Positions 1,420-14,930 of a DNA stretch of 20,834 nucleotides are shown here, piece by piece. Both the position numbers and the translations under genes were made by a program. This stretch comes from a virus (Duplodnaviria > Heunggongvirae > Uroviricota > Caudoviricetes), in IMG/VR virus record IMGVR_UViG_2778261058_000016, positions 1 through 20,834 of that record, one strand, 5' to 3'. Position 1 is the stretch's first letter. The number at the start of each line of letters is the position of its first letter. The notes beneath the pieces are model-generated. The model searched no databases, was not told the DNA's origin, and saw nothing but the letters and a program-made list of their open reading frames with translations.

Positions 1420-1620
1420 AAAATGGGGGATAACTGAGCAGTGCTTTCGCACCCAATAGCCAGCTCATAACTGGCTATCAGTTGCTTGACATCCTCCCCG
1501 TCCTAAAGGAAGGGGATTCCTACAGCTAGACGGCGATGCCCCGCCGCGAGAATGTTCTTTGCGGCGTTCACGTCGCGGTCATGAGTGGTTCCGCACTCAC
1601 AACAAGTCCATTCTCTTATT
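1391..1620 (-). ncRNA. Putative omega-RNA (TnpB guide RNA) overlapping the tnpB 3' end and the IS right end
   Basis: In IS200/IS605 elements the omega-RNA is encoded across the 3' end of tnpB and the right end. This region holds three hairpins, one spanning the tnpB stop at about 1496..1515, plus those at 1456..1478 and 1401..1419. Extent is a guess and no covariance model was applied. Confidence 0.25.
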
Positions 1621-2594
1621 CGCAGGCCTGCTCTACCTTTCGGACTGTTGGCGGAGATAGCCCCGCAACACGAACAAGCTTGGGTGGAATAACTTTCGTT
1701 GACCACTTCAAACACCACTGACCGCGCAATCGCTTTATATTCCAGTTGTGTTTTGAGCATGAACCAGCCAGCGTCCAAAATGCTTTTTGCCATTTTGGTT
1801 TTAACCAGTTTCTTACTGCTCGCGTCGCCTACGAATATTGCCGCATGGCTGTTAACCAGCGCCGTGCTGTACTTGTGCAGGGCATCTTTGCGGCGGTTCT
1901 TAATTTTGGCGTGTATGGCGCGTACACGGGCTTTTTTGTTTGCACGCTGTGCCTTTCCTAATGCAGGCTCCAGATCTCGATAGAATCTACCGGCAATCAG
2001 CGGATCACCTTCTGACGGGGTGGCGTAGTCTTTCAGCCCTAAATCGATACCCACGGCGGAAGTGGCCGTTGATGGGACAGTTTCGACCTCTACGCAAACA
2101 TTGAAGTACCAGCGTCCACGGCTGTCTTCTGAAAAGCTTCCAGCACGGAATTTAAATCCTCCCAAGCCGTAGCTATCCCAGACATTAAAAATCCTGCCAG
2201 CGAACCGCACCGCGCCATTTTTCCAGACAGCGCTGCCTATTTTAAACGGCACCCAACCCAACGAACGGCGAGATCCCCCACTGACTCGCCAGCGTAAGCG
2301 AGAGCGTTTAAATTGCTTCCGTGCCTTGCCGTGAATTGCTGCGATTTCCTGTACGGTATGGCTGGGGATGGTATACCCGCGCTCTTTTCGCTCTTTAAGG
2401 AGCGGTTTCTGAACATCAAACGCCGATAGCCATTGCGGTTTTTGCGCGCCAAAAAAGCCAGCGTTGCCGTATGCTGCGCTGGTTATCTCGTTTGCCAGAT
2501 TAAAGATCTGATTGACCTCAAAGGCCATCTGCCGCAAAACGGCTGCGTGCTTGTCTTTAATTCGGACAGATAGTGTTTTGATCTGAATGTTCAT
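1503..2594 (-). CDS. tnpB: TnpB, RNA-guided endonuclease of the IS200/IS605 family (RuvC-like domain plus zinc finger)
   Basis: About 363 aa from the ATG at 2594 (MNIQIKTLSV...). RuvC-I-like GIDLGLKDY, and a C-terminal CSCCGAIS...CCECGTTHDRDVNAAKNI (CxxC...CxxC zinc finger with RuvC-III HDRD/NAAKNI). The ORF track's start at 2663 adds 23 unlikely N-terminal residues. Confidence 0.85.
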   Translation of the reverse strand: MNIQIKTLSVRIKDKHAAVLRQMAFEVNQIFNLANEITSAAYGNAGFFGAQKPQWLSAFDVQKPLLKERKERGYTIPSHTVQEIAAIHGKARKQFKRSRLRWRVSGGSRRSLGWVPFKIGSAVWKNGAVRFAGRIFNVWDSYGLGGFKFRAGSFSEDSRGRWYFNVCVEVETVPSTATSAVGIDLGLKDYATPSEGDPLIAGRFYRDLEPALGKAQRANKKARVRAIHAKIKNRRKDALHKYSTALVNSHAAIFVGDASSKKLVKTKMAKSILDAGWFMLKTQLEYKAIARSVVFEVVNESYSTQACSCCGAISANSPKGRAGLRIREWTCCECGTTHDRDVNAAKNILAAGHRRLAVGIPFL

Positions 2595-2684
2595 GGTCGT
2601 ATGTACATATAATGTGTTGATGTTCAGTTGATCGTCGTTATTTGGCGGGATGTCACCCGCCACACGGCGATGCGCTGATGCTGT

Positions 2685-2954
2685 TTACTTCCGCCAGGCG
2701 AAGCTAATTGGCTCCGGCGTAATCCACAGGTGGCGCATGTTCGCCACGTTCACCACATCATAATCCCGCGGGTAAATCTCCACGGCATCCCGATCCCCAT
2801 AGCCAACGGCTGACTTTATCTCCTGCAATGCATCCCAACTGATGCCATCCTTCCACCGGCCAGAGCTGCCAATGCTGGTGGTGTTCACCGTCAGGCGAAT
2901 AACACCGTTCTCTTCCTGAAACTCCTGAACAAGAAAGTAAGAGTTAGCCCACAC
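2685..2954 (-). CDS. Hypothetical protein, 89 aa, leftward, immediately upstream of the IS left end
   Basis: Protein-like composition (MWANSYFLVQEFQEENGVIRLTVNT...EIYPRDYDVVNVANMRHLWITPEPISFAWRK) and no conflicting gene on the other strand. The start is a GTG and the frame stays open upstream without start codons, so this may be the C-terminal remnant of a longer truncated gene. No family recognised. Confidence 0.35.
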   Translation of the reverse strand: MWANSYFLVQEFQEENGVIRLTVNTTSIGSSGRWKDGISWDALQEIKSAVGYGDRDAVEIYPRDYDVVNVANMRHLWITPEPISFAWRK

Positions 2955-3010
2955 GTTGCTCCGCTTGGGGTCGTGGCATCGTACCGGCCATTGCGATTCC
3001 GGTAACCGCG

Positions 3011-3910
3011 ATGTTCCGGGATATCGAGAAGCGATATATCGGCATCAAGCGAGCGCTGAAATCTCTGTTCGACCAGCGCCTTACCGGGCGTGAGCGCGAG
3101 GTTAACAGCCATAACTGGCACTTCCTTTGTCATGACCACGGCGCGGATATGCGCCTCTACCAGGTAAACGCCGGCAAGTTCATCTACGACATGTCGGCGC
3201 AGGAACTGGCGGACCTGCTGGAAGCGGTGCAGGCCATTCTCGACGATTACCTGCTGGATGGTGGCGAGCAAAATCTCTGGGCGATGGATTACGTCGTCGC
3301 AGAAGCGCAGCGCGGCACGCTTGAGGCATTCAATAACCTCTCGCAACAGTCGCAGGTGTATGCCAGTCAGACGACGCTGCAGCAGCTTTTAAGCAGTCCC
3401 GGTCATCTTAATCAGGTGGCAGCGGCAAGGCTGACAACGTTCAGTGACTGGAAGGTCATCAGCGATACAGCCCGCGGCGACCTGACCAACATCATCACCG
3501 ATGCGGTCGCGCGCGGGGTGAACCCTCGCGAGACGGCCAGCGTAATCAGCAAGCGCCTCGATGTGTCGATGTCGAAGGCAAAGACCATCGCTCAGACTGA
3601 GCAGGTCGGCGCACTGCGGCAGGCACAATGGAACGAAACCGACTGGGCTGCTGACCGGCTGGGGCTGAATACCGGCCTACTGTGGTTGTCAGCGCTAAAA
3701 CCAACGACGCGAACCTGGCATGCCAGCCGCCACGGCAAGGTCTACACCACCGAAGAGATTCGGGACTTCTACGCCGAGAACGGCAACCGGTACAACTGCT
3801 ACTGCAGCCAGATCCCAGTGCTGCTCAACGACGACGGCAGCATCTTCAATGAGGGGCTGGCTGAGAAACTGGCGAAAGAGAGGAAAGCTTGGAAATCCGA
3901 GTCGGAGTGA
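3011..3910 (+). CDS. Phage head morphogenesis protein (Mu F-like / SPP1 gp7 family minor head protein)
   Basis: 299 aa. The segment KAKTIAQTEQVGALRQAQWNETDW...TRTWHASRHGKVYTTEE fits the Mu F-like signature (TIA-TE ... W ... R-x-H-x-G-K). First start in frame is ATG 3011, with an in-frame stop at 2945..2947 upstream. Confidence 0.7.
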   Translation: MFRDIEKRYIGIKRALKSLFDQRLTGREREVNSHNWHFLCHDHGADMRLYQVNAGKFIYDMSAQELADLLEAVQAILDDYLLDGGEQNLWAMDYVVAEAQRGTLEAFNNLSQQSQVYASQTTLQQLLSSPGHLNQVAAARLTTFSDWKVISDTARGDLTNIITDAVARGVNPRETASVISKRLDVSMSKAKTIAQTEQVGALRQAQWNETDWAADRLGLNTGLLWLSALKPTTRTWHASRHGKVYTTEEIRDFYAENGNRYNCYCSQIPVLLNDDGSIFNEGLAEKLAKERKAWKSESE

Positions 3911-10458: not shown

Positions 10459-11130
10459 ATGACCGCTTTAACAGATATTGGCGAACTCTCTATCAGCGAC
10501 AGCCGCGAAGGCGGGAAAGATTACCTGTTACGGCCGTCATTCGAGGCTATGGCGAGAATCGGCACTCCGGAAGAGATTGTGCAGGCGTATGCCACCATCC
10601 ACGGGAATGATGTCGCTCAACTCATTGAGGTGTGCACCGGCGGGCTGGGCCGCTTTCCTGAATGGCTATCACCTTCATTCAACCGCGCCGCTGAGAAGCT
10701 GTTATCAACGTGCATGCTTGTGCTGCAGGCGTGTTGTGATGATGACCTGACGCCAATGATTGGCGAATGGAAAGGGTGGCGACATTGTGTCGTCTACCGC
10801 CCGGGCCAGATGCCGAAGAACGACATCATCGTACTGGCGCAGCACCTCATGCAGCACGGGGTCGTAGGTAAAGCCAAAGTTCGACAGTTGCAGCGTCACG
10901 AGACTGACGAGCGCACTACCGAGTTTAAAGCCTTCGACTACATCAGCGCGGCACGAAGTCACTTCGGCATGAATCGCGCCGAAGCTTCGCAGCTAACGAT
11001 GACCGAATTTCAGATGCTGCTGGCCACGAAATACCCGGACCAGAAAGGTTTCACTCGCGAAGAGTACGACAGCATCGCCGACGAATACCTGGCTAAACAG
11101 GCCGCGCGCAGGGCACAAGTTAGTAGTTAA
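10459..11130 (+). CDS. Tail assembly chaperone candidate (G/GT-like position)
   Basis: 223 aa, RBS GGAAGG upstream, located between major tail and tape measure genes. I found no slippery heptamer or extended -1 frame, so a canonical G/GT frameshift product is not evident. Confidence 0.4.
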   Translation: MTALTDIGELSISDSREGGKDYLLRPSFEAMARIGTPEEIVQAYATIHGNDVAQLIEVCTGGLGRFPEWLSPSFNRAAEKLLSTCMLVLQACCDDDLTPMIGEWKGWRHCVVYRPGQMPKNDIIVLAQHLMQHGVVGKAKVRQLQRHETDERTTEFKAFDYISAARSHFGMNRAEASQLTMTEFQMLLATKYPDQKGFTREEYDSIADEYLAKQAARRAQVSS

Positions 11131-11176
11131 TAAAATGAAATTTACAAAATTACCTTTTATTTTGCACTAGCCATAC

Positions 11177-11205
11177 TTGCAGGGTTATTGAGTAGGAGTT
11201 ATAGT
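11177..11205 (+). promoter_or_regulatory. Putative sigma70-type promoter for the NYN-domain gene (TTGCAG - 17 nt - TATAGT)
   Basis: -35-like TTGCAG at 11177..11182 and -10-like TATAGT at 11200..11205 with 17-nt spacing, in an AT-rich intergenic stretch about 105 nt upstream of ATG 11310. Sequence-only prediction. Confidence 0.4.
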
Positions 11206-11309
11206 TCGCAACAATGATGTGGGCGGCTCGCACCCCATACAAGTGAGGTTTACCTCCGCGAGCCTAACCCACCACTCTCCCTCTAATTCCCCGAATTCGG
11301 TTAATAAAA

Positions 11310-11942
11310 ATGGAAAGACAGTACGCAGTACTTCTTGACGCAGGGTTCTTGCGCCGAAAATTAGGTACTCAGGCAGCACCAATGACAGCTCAAAATGTCG
11401 AAGATTTAGTTAATAAAATTAAAGCACGAGCTGAGTTATTAGGGATGCGGTTGTATCGTGTGTTTTATTACGACGCTGAGCCTTTCACGGGTACTAAGAC
11501 ACATCCTATATCCAACGCTGTTATTAACTTTGGCGCTACACAAATGGCCATTGATTGTAATACATTGTTAGATGAGCTTAAGGTCAAGCCTTTTTTTGCT
11601 GTGCGCCTAGGGGAACTCAATTTTAGAGGGTGGAAGGTTTCTGATGCTGCTCTTCAGTCAGGTGCAGGAGGGACGGCAACAATTAATGCTCATAATGTTT
11701 CTCCCAATCTTCAGCAGAAAGGTGTGGATATGAGGATCGCATTAGATATCTCATCTATGACTTTAAAAAACCAAGCAGACGTTTTTTGCTTGGTAACAGG
11801 TGACTCAGATTTTGCACCCATCATCAAATTTGCGAGATCTGAAGGAAAGCAAGTATTCACTTATACTCTCGGTCATAGAGTCAAACCATCTTTGCCTATT
11901 CATTCTGACCTCCATATCCCTGAAACGTACGCTAATTTGTAA
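11310..11942 (+). CDS. NYN-domain (PIN-like, LabA/YacP-type) putative ribonuclease, 210 aa; AT-rich moron
   Basis: N-terminal first-strand motif YAVLLDAGFL (acidic residue in the first beta strand), central KGVDMRIALDI, and CLVTGDSDFAPIIKFARSEGKQVF (GDSDF), matching conserved acidic motifs of NYN/PIN-like nucleases. Visibly much lower GC than the flanking chaperone and tape-measure genes, with its own promoter-like element and a downstream terminator. Confidence 0.75.
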   Translation: MERQYAVLLDAGFLRRKLGTQAAPMTAQNVEDLVNKIKARAELLGMRLYRVFYYDAEPFTGTKTHPISNAVINFGATQMAIDCNTLLDELKVKPFFAVRLGELNFRGWKVSDAALQSGAGGTATINAHNVSPNLQQKGVDMRIALDISSMTLKNQADVFCLVTGDSDFAPIIKFARSEGKQVFTYTLGHRVKPSLPIHSDLHIPETYANL

Positions 11943-11958
11943 ACTTTAATCATTTCTT

Positions 11959-11983
11959 AAAACCCGCTTCGGCGGGTTTTTTT
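11959..11983 (+). terminator. Rho-independent, near-palindromic (potentially bidirectional) terminator after the NYN gene
   Basis: AAAACCCGCTTCGGCGGGTTTTTTT: 5-bp GC stem with TTCG loop, flanked by an A-run upstream and a 7-T run downstream. Begins 17 nt after the TAA at 11940..11942 and ends 16 nt before the tape-measure ATG. Confidence 0.65.
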
Positions 11984-11999
11984 ATGTCCGGAGAACGAC

Positions 12000-14930
12000 A
12001 TGGCAGGTGAGAAAAACGCCGGTAGCATCGTTTATGAAGTCAGCGCCAATATTGAGCCGCTGCTGCAGGGCGGTAAACAGGCCATTGATGCTCTGGATAA
12101 ACTGGATGCTGCAGCCCAGCAGTCCGGGAAGGGAATGGATAACCTCGACCAGAGCACGTCTCAAACCGGATCCGCTTTTACTGAACTGGCTGGTTATGCC
12201 AATTCCATGGATAACCAGCTGCGCAAGCTGAACACCAACGTGAGCGGAATTGCCCGCGCTATGGAAGAGGCCCGCAGCGGTACCGGCGGCGCGAGCAGTG
12301 AATTCAGTCGCGCAGAATCAATCATCGAGGCGCTGGGTAACCAGCTGGCTGTGCTGGACGAAGCGCAGGAGAATGGCGCGCGTAGTGCCGCGGTTCTGGC
12401 AGCCCAGCTCCGAGCCGGGTCAAAAGCTACAGACGAAGAGAAGCAGAAGATCGGCGAATTGACTGGGCGGCTCTTCGACATGAAAGGCGCTGCTGATACC
12501 TCGATGGGCAGTAATAAAGGCTGGAAGGCCAGCATGCAGCAGGCTGGTTATCAGGTTCAGGATTTCATAGTACAGGTGCAGGGCGGCCAGTCTGCGCTGG
12601 TGGCGTTCGCTCAGCAGGGGTCTCAACTCGCTGGTGCATTCGGTCCCGGCGGCGCAGTCGTTGGTGCCATAATCGCGCTTGGTTCGGTGCTGGCTGGCGT
12701 GCTGATTACTTCGCTGAATGGCGGCAAGAATGCCATGGATGCGCTGAAAGACGCAGCTGAAGCGATGGATAAGGTTATCACCATTTCATCGCAAGGCGTG
12801 GCCGCGCTTTCCGACAAGTATGCTGCCCTGGCGCGCGTAAATGCCGACGTGGCTACTTTGCTGAGAAATCAGGCACTGCTCGAGTATAACCAGGCGATCT
12901 CAAAGATTCCTAAAGCCATTAGTGACGCGTCTGATGCTTTCATTACGTTAGGCGATCGCGCACTGGCGGCTGTTGGCGGTGCGTCTCCAAGCATCAAAAA
13001 GTTCAACGATGAGCTTTCTGCGCTTGGCGTTACCACAAATGACTGGAGCCAGGCCATTCAACAGGCCAACAGTCAGGGGCAATATGCCTCTGGCATTGTG
13101 AACTCTTTATCTTCAACGGTCAGCACGCTTTCTTCACGCCTCGGCATCAGCAAGCAATCAGCGTTTGATCTTGCAAGAGAGTTATCAGACCTGAGCAACA
13201 ACCCGTCGCCTGAAGCACTTCAGGAACTGGCGAAAAAGCTCCAGGAAATGAAGTCCTCCTCCAAAGATGGGCAGTCAGCCATTGCTGAGCTGGCTGGTAA
13301 ACTTGTCGATCTGGCAAGAGAGGCAGCCAATGCGAAGATCAATGTAGACAGCCTGAATAAGTCCACGGATAACCTTACCGCCGGACAGAAGAACCTGATC
13401 AAACAGTCCGAGCGCAACCTGGCACTCTCGAAGTTGCAGGGCGAGGCTCGCGCACGGTTGCAGGCGCAATACGCTGCCGAAGATGCTGGATTTGCGAAGG
13501 ATGATCCGCATGCCAAGCAGATGGAAGATGATGCTGCCGCTACGTACAAAAATACGGAAGAGCAAAAGAAGCTTAAATCGGAGCAGAAAAAAGGAGCATC
13601 TCAGGCAGAAACCATTGCTCAGAAGCTGGCGAACCTGAAACAGCAGTCAGAACTCGCTGCCGATTCAACGAATAAGCTGAGCCGAGAGCAGGCTATTCTG
13701 AATGCGCAGCAGTCGCTCGGGAAAGGTGCCACCAAAGAGCAGATAGCACTTGCCGGTCAGTATGCGGCCAAAAAATGGGACACCGCCAACGCCATTAAGG
13801 CTCAGGCTGCAGCGGAGAAACTTCTTCCTGAGGCCCGCGAGAACGCCAGCTACAGGCAGGATGTTGAGGACCTGAATACCGCTCTGGCTGCGAAGAAAAT
13901 CAGTCAGGAGCAGTTCAATCAGACATCCGAGCGACTGGAAGCAACTCACCAGGCCAACCTTGCGAAAATCCGTGCCGATCAGGCTGTCAGCCCACTGCAG
14001 GAAGCTGCTGGCGGTGTGGATCCGGTGCAGCAACTGGCGAATGAAAATGCCCGAAAACTCGCGCTTATTCAGGCTTACGAGCAGCAGGGGATTATTACTC
14101 ACCAGAACGCGCTTATGCTGCGCGCATCAGCTGACAGGGAGTACGAGCAGGCTCGCATCGCGGCGCAATGGGAGATTTTCCGTAACCAGAGCGCAGGCAA
14201 TGAAGCGCTGGCGGCGTCCTTTGATGCACTGGCCGGTAATGCGTCCAATGCCTTAACCGGCATCATCACCGGGAGCATGTCAGCTTCCGATGCTCTGCGC
14301 TCGATCGGGAATACCGTACTGAACAGCCTCATCAACACCTTCGTCCAGATGGGCGTTGAGTGGGTTAAATCGGCAATCATGGGGCAGACGGCCACCACTG
14401 CAGCGGTTGCAGCATCTACCACGGCGCAGGCAGCAGGCATTGCCACTACCACGGCGACGTCTACCGCGGCGGCGGCGGCCACAACTGCAGCATGGACGCC
14501 AGCGGCCATCATGTCCTCCATTGCGTCATTCGGTGGAGCGGTGGCGATCGGCATCGGAGCTATGGCTGGCATCCTGGCACTGTCAGGAAAGCGTAAGAAC
14601 GGCGGGCCGGTTAGTGCAAGCGGAATGTATCAGGTCGGCGAAGGTGGAATGCCGGAGATTTACCAGGCCAGCACCGGTAAGCAGTACATGATACCGGGCG
14701 ACAACGGCAAGGTGATCAGCAACAAGGAAATGACTGCCGGAGGCGGTGGCGGGGTAATTTTGAATATCAACAATTACTCTTCAGCGTCGGTCGATGCACA
14801 GGCTACGCAGGGCAGTGACGGCACCTGGACTATCGATACATTCATCGCTGACATGAATAATGGTGGACCAGCAAGCCAGGCTATTACCAGCAATTTGAAC
14901 GTTAAGCGCACGCCAAGGGGGCAGGGCTGA
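12000..14930 (+). CDS. Tail tape measure protein
   Basis: 976 aa, RBS GGAGAA. Long Ala/Gln/Glu-rich coiled-coil body, C-terminal hydrophobic Ala/Thr/Gly-rich segments (TTAAVAASTTAQAAGIATTTATSTAAAAATTAAW...AIGIGAMAGILALSG), and position after the chaperone gene. Confidence 0.85.
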   Translation: MAGEKNAGSIVYEVSANIEPLLQGGKQAIDALDKLDAAAQQSGKGMDNLDQSTSQTGSAFTELAGYANSMDNQLRKLNTNVSGIARAMEEARSGTGGASSEFSRAESIIEALGNQLAVLDEAQENGARSAAVLAAQLRAGSKATDEEKQKIGELTGRLFDMKGAADTSMGSNKGWKASMQQAGYQVQDFIVQVQGGQSALVAFAQQGSQLAGAFGPGGAVVGAIIALGSVLAGVLITSLNGGKNAMDALKDAAEAMDKVITISSQGVAALSDKYAALARVNADVATLLRNQALLEYNQAISKIPKAISDASDAFITLGDRALAAVGGASPSIKKFNDELSALGVTTNDWSQAIQQANSQGQYASGIVNSLSSTVSTLSSRLGISKQSAFDLARELSDLSNNPSPEALQELAKKLQEMKSSSKDGQSAIAELAGKLVDLAREAANAKINVDSLNKSTDNLTAGQKNLIKQSERNLALSKLQGEARARLQAQYAAEDAGFAKDDPHAKQMEDDAAATYKNTEEQKKLKSEQKKGASQAETIAQKLANLKQQSELAADSTNKLSREQAILNAQQSLGKGATKEQIALAGQYAAKKWDTANAIKAQAAAEKLLPEARENASYRQDVEDLNTALAAKKISQEQFNQTSERLEATHQANLAKIRADQAVSPLQEAAGGVDPVQQLANENARKLALIQAYEQQGIITHQNALMLRASADREYEQARIAAQWEIFRNQSAGNEALAASFDALAGNASNALTGIITGSMSASDALRSIGNTVLNSLINTFVQMGVEWVKSAIMGQTATTAAVAASTTAQAAGIATTTATSTAAAAATTAAWTPAAIMSSIASFGGAVAIGIGAMAGILALSGKRKNGGPVSASGMYQVGEGGMPEIYQASTGKQYMIPGDNGKVISNKEMTAGGGGGVILNINNYSSASVDAQATQGSDGTWTIDTFIADMNNGGPASQAITSNLNVKRTPRGQG

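What the first reader, a model, noticed from the sequence alone, without database searches (positions are those of the whole stretch)
11131..11990. AT-rich standalone NYN/PIN-like nuclease cassette between the tail chaperone and tape-measure genes: candidate single-gene phage-defence or anti-host module
A complete transcription unit (promoter-like TTGCAG-17-TATAGT, about 105-nt leader, 210-aa NYN-domain ORF, near-palindromic intrinsic terminator) sits inside an otherwise tightly packed, GC-rich tail operon. Its base composition is visibly far more AT-rich than both neighbours, the classic signature of a horizontally acquired moron. NYN domains are PIN-like RNases, so an autonomous prophage-borne NYN gene is a plausible abortive-infection or superinfection-exclusion effector, or alternatively an anti-host RNase. 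I do not recognise it as a named defence system. The RBS is weak, which fits a toxic gene kept at low expression.
Basis: partly seen in the sequence, partly recalled or inferred. Interest (0 to 1): 0.75.

Follow-up and report, generated by a model that had tools for sequence, protein, structure and literature searches.

The report
Prophage NYN nuclease with partner RNA
An AT-rich cassette inserted in a prophage tail operon encodes a PIN-like NYN ribonuclease, and its "leader" is a structured RNA absent from Rfam that accompanies this nuclease family across many bacterial phyla, so the unit looks like an RNA–protein toxin/antitoxin-type module rather than a lone gene.

Summary
Window 11120-11988 is an ~870-bp low-GC insert (0.40-0.46 against 0.55-0.59) between the DUF6246 gene and the tape-measure gene. 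It has a conserved promoter-like site, a 210-aa NYN ORF (Pfam PF01936; AlphaFold model matches LabA-like and MARF1 NYN structures; invariant Asp residues) and an intrinsic terminator. The slot is empty in phage CobraSix, holds other cargo in phage ENT1, and holds NYN plus extra genes in Serratia and Morganella prophages.

The cassette is not a single-gene unit. The leader contains a ~54-nt structured RNA (11219-11272): two stacked stems, a conserved 10-13-nt bulge and a capping hairpin. Two covariance models found it next to ~71 distinct NYN loci in several phyla and nowhere else in 780 kb. Covariation is strong and no Rfam family matches. No protein neighbour is conserved.

In three loci the RNA lies on the opposite strand; two of these have a promoter-like site of their own. 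In 42 of 71 loci it ends in a T-run.

Best reading, not shown experimentally: an RNA-restrained nuclease module, like type III toxin-antitoxin or AbiF-RCd22 systems, acting in lysogens as abortive-infection, exclusion or addiction cargo. Toxicity, RNA binding and defence are all untested.

The parts
10459..11130 (+). Upstream flank: DUF6246 gene, in the tail-chaperone position of the tail operon.
   Evidence: Pfam DUF6246 E 6.9e-72. The same gene precedes NYN in Serratia, Morganella and one metagenome-assembled (Logan) contig.
11120..11988 (.). Inserted low-GC cassette (moron). Boundaries are where homology to phage CobraSix, which has an empty slot, is lost and regained.
11177..11205 (+). Promoter-like site: TTGCAG, 17 nt, TATAGT.
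   Evidence: Sequence. CTTG and TATAGT are invariant in the enterobacterial homologues. The consensus scanner did not call it.
11219..11272 (+). Conserved structured RNA. P1 is 11219-11223 with 11268-11272. P2 is 11225-11231 with 11258-11264. The unpaired conserved bulge J is 11232-11244 (ACCCCAUACAAGU). The capping hairpin P3 is 11245-11256.
   Evidence: Covariance model R1 hit of 50 bits, E 1.9e-9, the only hit in the window. Covariation. Folding z-score -4.06. No Rfam match.
11273..11309 (+). CU-rich spacer with no Shine-Dalgarno sequence and no T-run. Most distant homologues have a T-run here instead.
11310..11942 (+). 210-aa LabA-type NYN (PIN-like) nuclease gene.
   Evidence: Pfam PF01936. 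phrog_5783, function unknown. AlphaFold2 model with pLDDT 92.5. Foldseek matches 2qip and the MARF1 NYN domain. Invariant D10, D55, D140, D146, D165, D167 and D200.
11959..11986 (+). Intrinsic terminator: a 9-bp stem with a TTCG loop and a T-run, flanked by an A-run.
12000..14930 (+). Downstream flank: tape-measure protein gene.
   Evidence: phrog_1538 E 1e-213.

Best explanation
A horizontally acquired moron in a prophage tail operon carries a two-part RNA-protein module. One promoter drives a transcript whose 5' end folds into a ~54-nt conserved RNA: a long hairpin with a conserved 10-13-nt bulge. This is followed about 37 nt later by a poorly translated gene for a LabA-type NYN metal-dependent endoribonuclease.

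The most likely mechanism is that the RNA is the nuclease's own ligand. It would bind the enzyme, probably through the bulge acting as a pseudo-substrate or processing site, and keep it inactive. In most homologues it would also act as a terminator-like attenuator, so that RNA is made in excess over protein. If RNA supply falls, for example through transcription shut-off by an infecting phage or loss of the element, the nuclease would be freed to cut cellular or phage RNA. That would give abortive infection, superinfection exclusion or addiction.

Shown here: the anatomy, the NYN fold and conserved acidic residues, the RNA's structure and covariation, the near-obligate RNA-NYN linkage with no other conserved partner, promoter-like sites for the RNA in two of the three inverted loci, and mobile or defence-type contexts.

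Inferred: RNA-protein binding, toxicity, and the defence or addiction phenotype.
For: NYN identity and intact acidic residues.

The leader is more conserved than the protein and shows compensatory changes.

Specificity of the RNA: R1 gave 47 hits and R2 gave 33 hits in 780 kb searched on both strands. All hits adjoin a NYN start.

Covariation: 87.9% of cells paired against 33-55% in slid controls, with 14 of 16 pairs showing double changes. On a sequence-only MAFFT alignment, 92.9% were paired against 30-52%. Frequent G-U pairs make the signal strand-specific.

No conserved protein neighbour within about 3 kb on either side in 81 loci.

Terminator-like features: 42 of 71 elements are followed by a T-run, and the median distance to the start codon is 21 nt.

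Promoters: promoter-like sites lie 14-20 nt before the RNA.

Inverted loci: in L078, L080 and L082 the RNA is on the opposite strand. L078 and L080 have a promoter-like site of their own on that strand; the scanner found none in L082. L080 and L082 share only 63% protein identity yet keep the inverted RNA with covarying stems.

Other signs of an independent RNA gene: a tandem duplicate in L074, and orphan RNAs beside decayed NYN genes.

Context: moron slots, immunity regions and a defence-island-like locus.

Published precedent: the prophage AbiF toxin is neutralised in cis and in trans by its upstream RNA RCd22 (PMC12373285).
Against: No experiment or direct computation shows toxicity, RNA-protein binding or phage resistance.

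In the window and its enterobacterial relatives the RNA is not followed by a T-run, so there it is simply the 5' part of the mRNA.

The RNA is single-copy, whereas classical type III antitoxins are repeat arrays.

More than 95% of loci keep the RNA in the leader position, which also fits a purely cis-acting regulator.

PADLOC models match only weakly.

One homologue sits inside a nif-like metabolic cluster.
Confidence: 0.45

Rival explanations
1. Purely cis-acting leader. The structured RNA is an attenuator or autoregulatory site. NYN protein, or a small ligand, would stabilise the terminator-like hairpin or cleave the leader to set the expression of a nuclease that is not a toxin-antitoxin toxin. 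The RNA would have no function as a free molecule.
For: In about 68 of 71 elements the RNA lies on the same strand, 6-48 nt before the start codon. The hairpin is followed by a T-run in 42 of 71. The window's version has no T-run and must stay part of the mRNA.
Against: Three loci have the RNA on the opposite strand. It is conserved there across 63% protein identity, and two of the three have a promoter-like site of their own. There is a tandem copy in L074. Orphan RNAs persist without NYN. No alternative anti-terminator pairing is apparent, because the conserved bulge lies inside the terminator stem itself.
Confidence: 0.25
2. The RNA is a cofactor, guide or dedicated substrate of NYN in a ribonucleoprotein with another role. 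Examples would be phage counter-defence, host-RNA takeover or RNA processing, rather than an inhibitor of a toxin.
For: The RNA-protein linkage is obligate and there is no other partner. The single-stranded bulge is conserved and displayed on a rigid stem. The genes are phage-borne.
Against: The bulge sequence differs between types (UACAAUCCAAG, GACAUAUAACAG, UCAUAUAAG), so there is no common complementary target. Many copies lie in chromosomes with no phage nearby. The positions in immunity regions suggest expression in lysogens.
Confidence: 0.15
3. One reading: a single-gene NYN effector with an ordinary untranslated leader. On this view the hairpin is a generic terminator or insulator.
For: The cassette has one ORF, one promoter and one terminator.
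Against: The leader is more conserved than the protein. It covaries and travels with NYN across phyla and through unrelated genomic contexts. Generic terminators do not keep a conserved 10-13-nt bulge.
Confidence: 0.05
4. NYN is a conserved structural or assembly component of this tail module.
For: NYN recurs in the same DUF6246/tape-measure slot in Serratia, Morganella and E. coli prophages.
Against: The slot is empty in phage CobraSix, with a 12-nt gap. It holds an unrelated reverse-strand ORF in phage ENT1. The same gene occurs in the nin region of a Klebsiella prophage and in non-phage chromosomes. Low GC and an own terminator also argue against it.
Confidence: 0.02

Closest known systems
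AbiF-RCd22 system of a Clostridioides difficile prophage, with the abiF RNA motif upstream of Abi_2/AbiD/F genes (PLoS Genet 2025, PMC12373285)
   Same: It is prophage-borne and has one toxic RNA-targeting protein gene preceded by a conserved structured non-coding RNA on the same transcript. That RNA lowers expression and neutralises the protein in cis and in trans by direct binding. It is described as type III TA-like.
   Different: The protein here is a NYN/PIN-like nuclease, not an Abi_2/HEPN-like protein. The RNA is a different motif with one bulged hairpin, not two abiF motifs, and it matches no Rfam family. Nothing has been tested experimentally here.
Type III toxin-antitoxin systems (ToxIN, CptIN, TenpIN)
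   Same: The layout is promoter, then antitoxin RNA, then a terminator-like structure, then an endoribonuclease gene, and these systems have an abortive-infection role. In 42 of 71 homologous loci the RNA ends in a T-run just before the nuclease gene.
   Different: The toxin fold is NYN, not ToxN/AbiQ-like. The RNA is a single structured hairpin, not a tandem array of 34-36-nt repeats; only L074 has two copies. The window's copy lacks the T-run.
LabA-like / DUF88 NYN proteins (Pfam PF01936; PDB 2qip VPA0982; MARF1 NYN domain 5yaa/6fdl)
   Same: They share the fold and the acidic motif, including GDSD.
   Different: Sequence identity to the solved structures is only 12-14%. This ~210-aa subfamily has a large beta-hairpin insertion (residues ~96-137) carrying invariant R99, G107-W108 and Q136-K137, and it has a dedicated RNA partner.
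Prophage morons and lysogen-expressed exclusion genes (for example lambda rexAB)
   Same: It is an autonomous promoter-gene-terminator unit of foreign composition inserted between late genes. More distant NYN homologues occupy the rexAB-like position between the repressor and N in E. coli phage ev099. tblastn also finds this homologue in 48 Stx2a-converting phage records, where it is unannotated and its neighbourhood was not examined.
   Different: Mechanism and components are unrelated to RexAB.

Membership tests
NYN domain (Pfam PF01936, LabA-like) | Profile match above the curated cut-off | tested here: met
   E 1.3e-12, 48.8 bits against a 24.2 cut-off. Only residues 131-186 align.
NYN domain (Pfam PF01936, LabA-like) | PIN-like alpha/beta fold | tested here: met
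   AlphaFold2 model with pLDDT 92.5. The top Foldseek PDB hits are 2qip and MARF1 NYN, E 3e-6 to 7e-5, target-normalised TM 0.63-0.77.
NYN domain (Pfam PF01936, LabA-like) | Conserved acidic residues that bind the metal: an N-terminal Asp after strand 1 and the GDSD motif | tested here: met
   D10, D140, D165 and D167 are invariant in 27 sequences of 41-86% identity. Their clustering in three dimensions was not measured.
Type III toxin-antitoxin (ToxIN/CptIN/TenpIN) | Toxin of the ToxN/AbiQ family | tested here: not met
   The protein is NYN.
Type III toxin-antitoxin (ToxIN/CptIN/TenpIN) | Antitoxin encoded as tandem direct repeats upstream of the toxin | tested here: not met
   No repeats in the leader. 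There is a single element in the window. One homologue has two copies.
Type III toxin-antitoxin (ToxIN/CptIN/TenpIN) | Terminator between the RNA and the toxin gene | tested here: inconclusive
   No T-run follows the RNA in the window. A T-run is present in 42 of 71 homologous loci.
Type III toxin-antitoxin (ToxIN/CptIN/TenpIN) | The RNA binds and neutralises the toxin, and the toxin is growth-inhibitory | not testable with these tools
   Requires expression and binding experiments.
abiF motif / AbiF-RCd22 | Abi_2 protein and the Rfam abiF RNA motif | tested here: not met
   Pfam gives NYN only. No Rfam hit on the leader even at E up to 10.
Prophage moron | Own promoter and terminator, deviant composition, and presence or absence among related phages | tested here: met
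Known anti-phage systems (PADLOC-DB 2.0) | Significant match to a system protein model | tested here: inconclusive
   Only weak local hits to HEC-09 (E 4e-4) and a NYN model (E 8e-4), over the GDSD region.

The most novel reading that the evidence does not exclude
The cassette is a member of an undescribed, phylum-spanning class of RNA-antitoxin (type III-like) abortive-infection or addiction modules. In this class a single bulged-hairpin RNA restrains a LabA-type NYN ribonuclease. The class spreads through prophage moron and immunity slots and through defence islands. The family is sizeable: one-per-cluster sampling at 50% identity gives 596 protein clusters at E <= 1e-10.
Probability: 0.35. 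Interest if true: 0.8.

Novelty: new variant of a known kind. Interest (0 to 1): 0.7.

Why it matters
LabA/DUF88-type NYN proteins are widespread, and neither the profile libraries nor the papers searched here assigned this subfamily a function. Finding that one large subfamily always travels with a dedicated structured RNA gives a concrete, testable handle on what these proteins do.

If the RNA restrains the nuclease, this would add a new toxin fold and a new RNA architecture to RNA-antitoxin systems, which currently comprise three ToxN-like families plus AbiF. It would also explain a recurrent cargo of prophage hot spots in Enterobacteriaceae.

The RNA motif is compact (~54 nt), covaries well and is absent from Rfam 15, so it is also a candidate new RNA family.

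Tried and rejected
1. Rfam. A gathering-threshold scan of the window and of 14 distant loci, and E <= 10 scans of three leaders, found nothing on the element.

2. MAFFT plus RNAalifold on a mixed set of 32 elements recovered only P3, because stem lengths and bulges differ. I replaced this with two type-specific seed alignments and covariance models.

3. A pattern scan of IMG/VR for the type-A bulge returned nine hits. All lie in what looks like a conserved coding stretch and lack the stems, so they are false positives.

4. A PDB sequence search with the family profile found no relatives. Only fold comparison worked.

5. The consensus promoter scanner did not call the window's promoter. The promoter claim rests on conservation instead.

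6. A search for a conserved protein partner among ORFs of at least 70 aa within about 3 kb on either side found none.

7. The leader upstream ORF at 11214-11246 (MMWAARTPYK*) is not conserved in frame or length in the Serratia copies, so it was rejected as the conserved feature.

8. Flanking direct repeats as an insertion signature: only chance-size matches.

9. Literature searches for NYN together with an RNA motif, type III TA or defence found no description of this pairing.

Full report
**1. The observation**

The window carries a tail operon on the + strand: a terminator-type tail protein, an Ig-like tail tube gene, a DUF6246 gene at 10459-11130 and a tape-measure gene at 12000-14930. Between the last two lies a 633-nt ORF at 11310-11942, 210 aa. 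GC in 300-nt windows falls from 0.55-0.59 to 0.40-0.46 over 11100-12000 and returns to 0.56-0.59 afterwards.

TTGCAG, 17 nt, TATAGT lies at 11177-11205. A 9-bp GC-rich hairpin with a T-run lies at 11959-11986 and is called as terminator-like. The promoter is not called by the consensus scanner, because the -35 matches only 3 of 6. However, CTTG and TATAGT are invariant in homologous cassettes whose proteins are only 60% identical. No Shine-Dalgarno sequence precedes the ATG.

**2. The protein**

- The ORF matches Pfam NYN (PF01936, E 1.3e-12, above the gathering score) and phrog_5783, whose function is unknown.
- PADLOC gives only weak local hits.
- An alignment of 27 homologues (41-86% identity) has invariant D10, D55, D140, D146, D165, D167 and D200, plus the GDSDF motif. 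It is conserved from residue 1.
- RefSeq starts the identical E. coli A14 gene at Met25. That start would remove D10, so it is probably wrong.
- An AlphaFold2 model (pLDDT 92.5) matches the LabA-like protein 2qip and the MARF1 NYN endoribonuclease domain best (E 3e-6 to 7e-5).
- The family is sizeable: 596 clusters at 50% identity with E <= 1e-10, nearly all ~200-250-aa single-domain proteins.

**3. It is a moron in a variable slot**

- The cassette is 100% identical in one of 5,426 complete E. coli genomes (strain A14), in a prophage remnant between yciA and yciB.
- In Enterobacter phage CobraSix the DUF6246 and tape-measure genes are 12 nt apart.
- In phage ENT1 the slot holds an unrelated 98-aa ORF on the other strand, with no Pfam match. 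BHUENT3 and BHUENT6 match the flanks the same way, in two pieces spanning about 450 bp less than the window; their slots were not read.
- Homology to CobraSix is lost near 11120 and regained near 11988.
- NYN homologues of 53-60% identity occupy the same slot in Serratia and Morganella prophages, followed by further variable cargo.
- Another homologue lies in the nin region of a Klebsiella lambdoid prophage.
- This excludes a conserved structural role.

**4. The new element: the leader is a conserved structured RNA**

Aligning the regions upstream of the enterobacterial homologues showed that the leader core is more conserved than the protein. It also has compensatory changes: GGCUCGC/GCGAGCC against GGUUCGC/GCGAACC, and GAGG/CCUC against GGGG/CCCC.

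A protein-based scan of one genome per species returned 80 more loci. They come from Gamma- and Betaproteobacteria, Acidobacteriota, Gemmatimonadota, Deltaproteobacteria, Eisenbacteria and spirochaetes, at 35-54% identity. Folding and a rule-based parse of their upstream regions found the same architecture in most of them:

- an outer stem P1, then a small bulge, then an inner stem P2;
- a 9-13-nt unpaired stretch J on the 5' side only, with sequence UACAAUCCAAG, GACAUAUAACAG, UCAUAUAAG or UUUAUAUAAAC (ACCCCAUACAAGU in the window);
- a short capped hairpin P3 that abuts the 3' strand of P2.

In the window the element is 11219-11272. It folds better than all 200 shuffles (z = -4.06).

**5. Statistics and specificity**

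- Covariance model R1 was built from 18 type-A sequences and R2 from 19 type-B/C sequences.
- Both were searched over 92 sources, 780 kb, on both strands. They gave 47 and 33 hits at E <= 1, each directly next to a NYN start and none elsewhere.
- On the R1-derived alignment, 87.9% of cells pair, against 33-55% when partners are slid. 14 of 16 pairs show changes on both sides, and no shuffle reaches the covariation score.
- On the purely sequence-based MAFFT alignment of types B and C, 92.9% pair against 30-52%. 10 of 19 pairs have double changes.
- G-U pairs are frequent, which is expected for RNA on this strand and not for a DNA palindrome.
- Rfam 15 has no matching family, even at E <= 10. 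Literature searches found no description of the pairing.
- In the reverse direction, an exact-pattern scan of metagenomes for the type-A core returned 12 loci, all genuine elements. Six are followed by NYN. Three are followed by a decayed NYN 5' end, and in two of those VapBC-like genes follow. Three have no NYN.

**6. Is the RNA a leader or a gene?**

No protein-coding neighbour is conserved within about 3 kb on either side in 81 loci, so the RNA is the only constant companion. Several features suggest an RNA product in its own right:

- 42 of 71 distinct elements are followed at once by a T-run, 51 are preceded by an A-run, and the median distance to the start codon is 21 nt.
- Promoter-like hexamers sit 14-20 nt before the element (and the window).
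- Luteibacter locus L074 has two tandem copies.
- In L078, L080 and L082 the element is on the opposite strand. L080 and L082 share only 63% protein identity yet both keep the inverted RNA, with a conserved J and covarying stems. L078's nearest relatives, at 66% identity, have the forward arrangement.
- L078 has TTGACA, 17 nt, TAAATT 14 nt upstream of the inverted RNA. L080 has back-to-back promoter-like sites for the RNA and for NYN. The scanner found no promoter-like site in L082.

Against this, the window's own copy has a CU-rich tract instead of a T-run. There the RNA is made as the 5' part of the NYN mRNA unless it is processed.

**7. Context**

- Besides the tail-operon slot, homologues lie beside Fic in a Paraburkholderia prophage.
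- One lies in an island with HipA_C, HIRAN, RmuC, TerB and BrxC/BrxD-family (PF10923) genes.
- One lies inside a nif-like cluster.
- More distant homologues (26-37% identity) were found by tblastn in 65 phage records. In E. coli phage ev099 the gene sits between a cI-like repressor and N. In Streptococcus phage Javan85 it sits between an XRE regulator and the integrase. In Burkholderia phage phiE202 it sits beside a toxin-antitoxin pair and the integrase. The 48 Stx2a-converting phage records carry the same homologue, but it is unannotated there and its neighbours were not checked.
- In ev099 and Javan85 the region before the start folds into a hairpin followed by a U-run. For phiE202 a similar hairpin was only noted by eye. 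R1 does not match any of them, and their relation to this RNA is unproven.

**8. Mechanism**

The best-supported reading is an RNA-restrained nuclease. The RNA would be made in excess by promoter proximity and, in most lineages, by termination. It would bind NYN through the displayed bulge and inhibit it, or serve as its processing site. Loss of RNA supply would free the nuclease.

This mirrors type III toxin-antitoxin systems and, most closely, the prophage AbiF-RCd22 pair, whose upstream RNA neutralises the toxin in cis and in trans (PMC12373285).

It is not a member of either family. The toxin fold, the RNA motif and the lack of repeats all differ (see the membership table). Binding, toxicity and phage defence are inferences.

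The main rival is a purely cis-acting autoregulatory attenuator. The inverted, promoter-bearing copies, the tandem duplicate and the orphan RNAs argue against it, but they do not exclude it for the window's own T-run-less version.

**9. Verdict**

The cassette is a moron encoding a NYN nuclease, but it is an RNA-plus-protein module rather than a single-gene system.

The protein is a new member of a known domain family. The RNA and its pairing with NYN appear undescribed. If the RNA works as inferred, this is a new variant of RNA-antitoxin and abortive-infection systems.

Noticed in passing
window 11310-11381 (E. coli A14 NZ_CP028760 2112371-2112931): RefSeq/PGAP starts the identical NYN gene at Met25 (186 aa, WP_052322663.1). 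This drops the conserved N-terminal strand with invariant D10, so the annotated start is probably wrong.
   Followed up: yes
L078 4872-4925(-), L080 1293-1349(-), L082 4662-4716(-): In three loci (Terriglobia and two Deltaproteobacteria) the NYN-associated RNA lies on the opposite strand to NYN. L078 and L080 have a promoter-like site of their own on that strand; the scanner found none in L082. Each has a U-rich tail.
   Followed up: yes
L074 4833-4887 and 4923-4977: Two tandem copies of the RNA element lie upstream of one NYN gene in Luteibacter. This is the only repeat-like arrangement seen.
   Followed up: partly
L106/L109, L116, L107/L111, L112: Orphan copies of the RNA element. Three loci (L106, L109, L116) have no NYN gene downstream; L106 and L109 show identical sequence around the element. 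Three others (L107, L111, L112) keep only the first NYN codons, and in L107 and L111 VapBC-like genes follow.
   Followed up: partly
L121 (E. coli phage ev099, NYN CDS at 2498-3355); 48 Stx2a-converting phage records: In ev099 a 285-aa NYN-domain gene (26.5% identical) sits between the cI-like repressor and N, which is the rexAB position of lambda. It is preceded by a 50-nt hairpin plus a U-run. tblastn finds the same homologue in 48 Stx2a-converting phage records, where it is unannotated and its context was not examined. Its function and any RNA partner are unexplored.
   Followed up: partly
L122 (Streptococcus phage Javan85) 1100-1232; L123 (Burkholderia phage phiE202) 2150-2294: Gram-positive and P2-like phage NYN homologues lie in lysogeny modules. 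In Javan85 a promoter read by eye (TTGACA, 17 nt, TAAAAT) precedes a hairpin with a U-run just before the NYN start (z = -3.56). In phiE202 a similar hairpin with a U-run was only read from the sequence; the leader contains CACCAUCCAG, reminiscent of the bulge motif. R1 matches neither.
   Followed up: partly
L017 4398-4460 and 6396-6458: A Rfam DUF3800-IX RNA lies ~450 nt upstream of the NYN RNA, and a fluoride riboswitch lies downstream of NYN, in the same Proteobacteria contig.
   Followed up: no
window 1503-2663 (-): A full-length TnpB (OrfB_IS605 plus Cas12f1-like TNB domains, 386 aa) lies beside the integrase at the left end of the prophage. In E. coli A14 the copy is shorter, and the region 2377-3154 differs between the two. 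The A14 annotation lists no terminase, lysis or replication gene among the 28 features between yciA and yciB, so the prophage looks like a remnant.
   Followed up: partly
L001 2244-2540 (-) (Enterobacter phage ENT1): In ENT1 the same DUF6246/tape-measure slot holds a 98-aa reverse-strand ORF with no Pfam match, a different unknown moron. BHUENT3 and BHUENT6 match the flanks in the same way, but their slots were not read.
   Followed up: partly
window 11214-11246: A short upstream ORF (ATGATG...TGA, MMWAARTPYK*) overlaps the 5' half of the RNA element. The conserved CAAUGA before P1 in enterobacterial copies is unexplained, and the ORF itself is not conserved in length.
   Followed up: partly
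upstream of P1 in most non-enteric loci (for example L019 2359-2370, L035 4905-4916): A conserved A-rich string (G/C)AUAA(A/G)A(A/G)AC lies directly 5' of P1 across RNA types. It can pair with the 3' U-run. It may be part of the RNA or a promoter-proximal signal.
   Followed up: no
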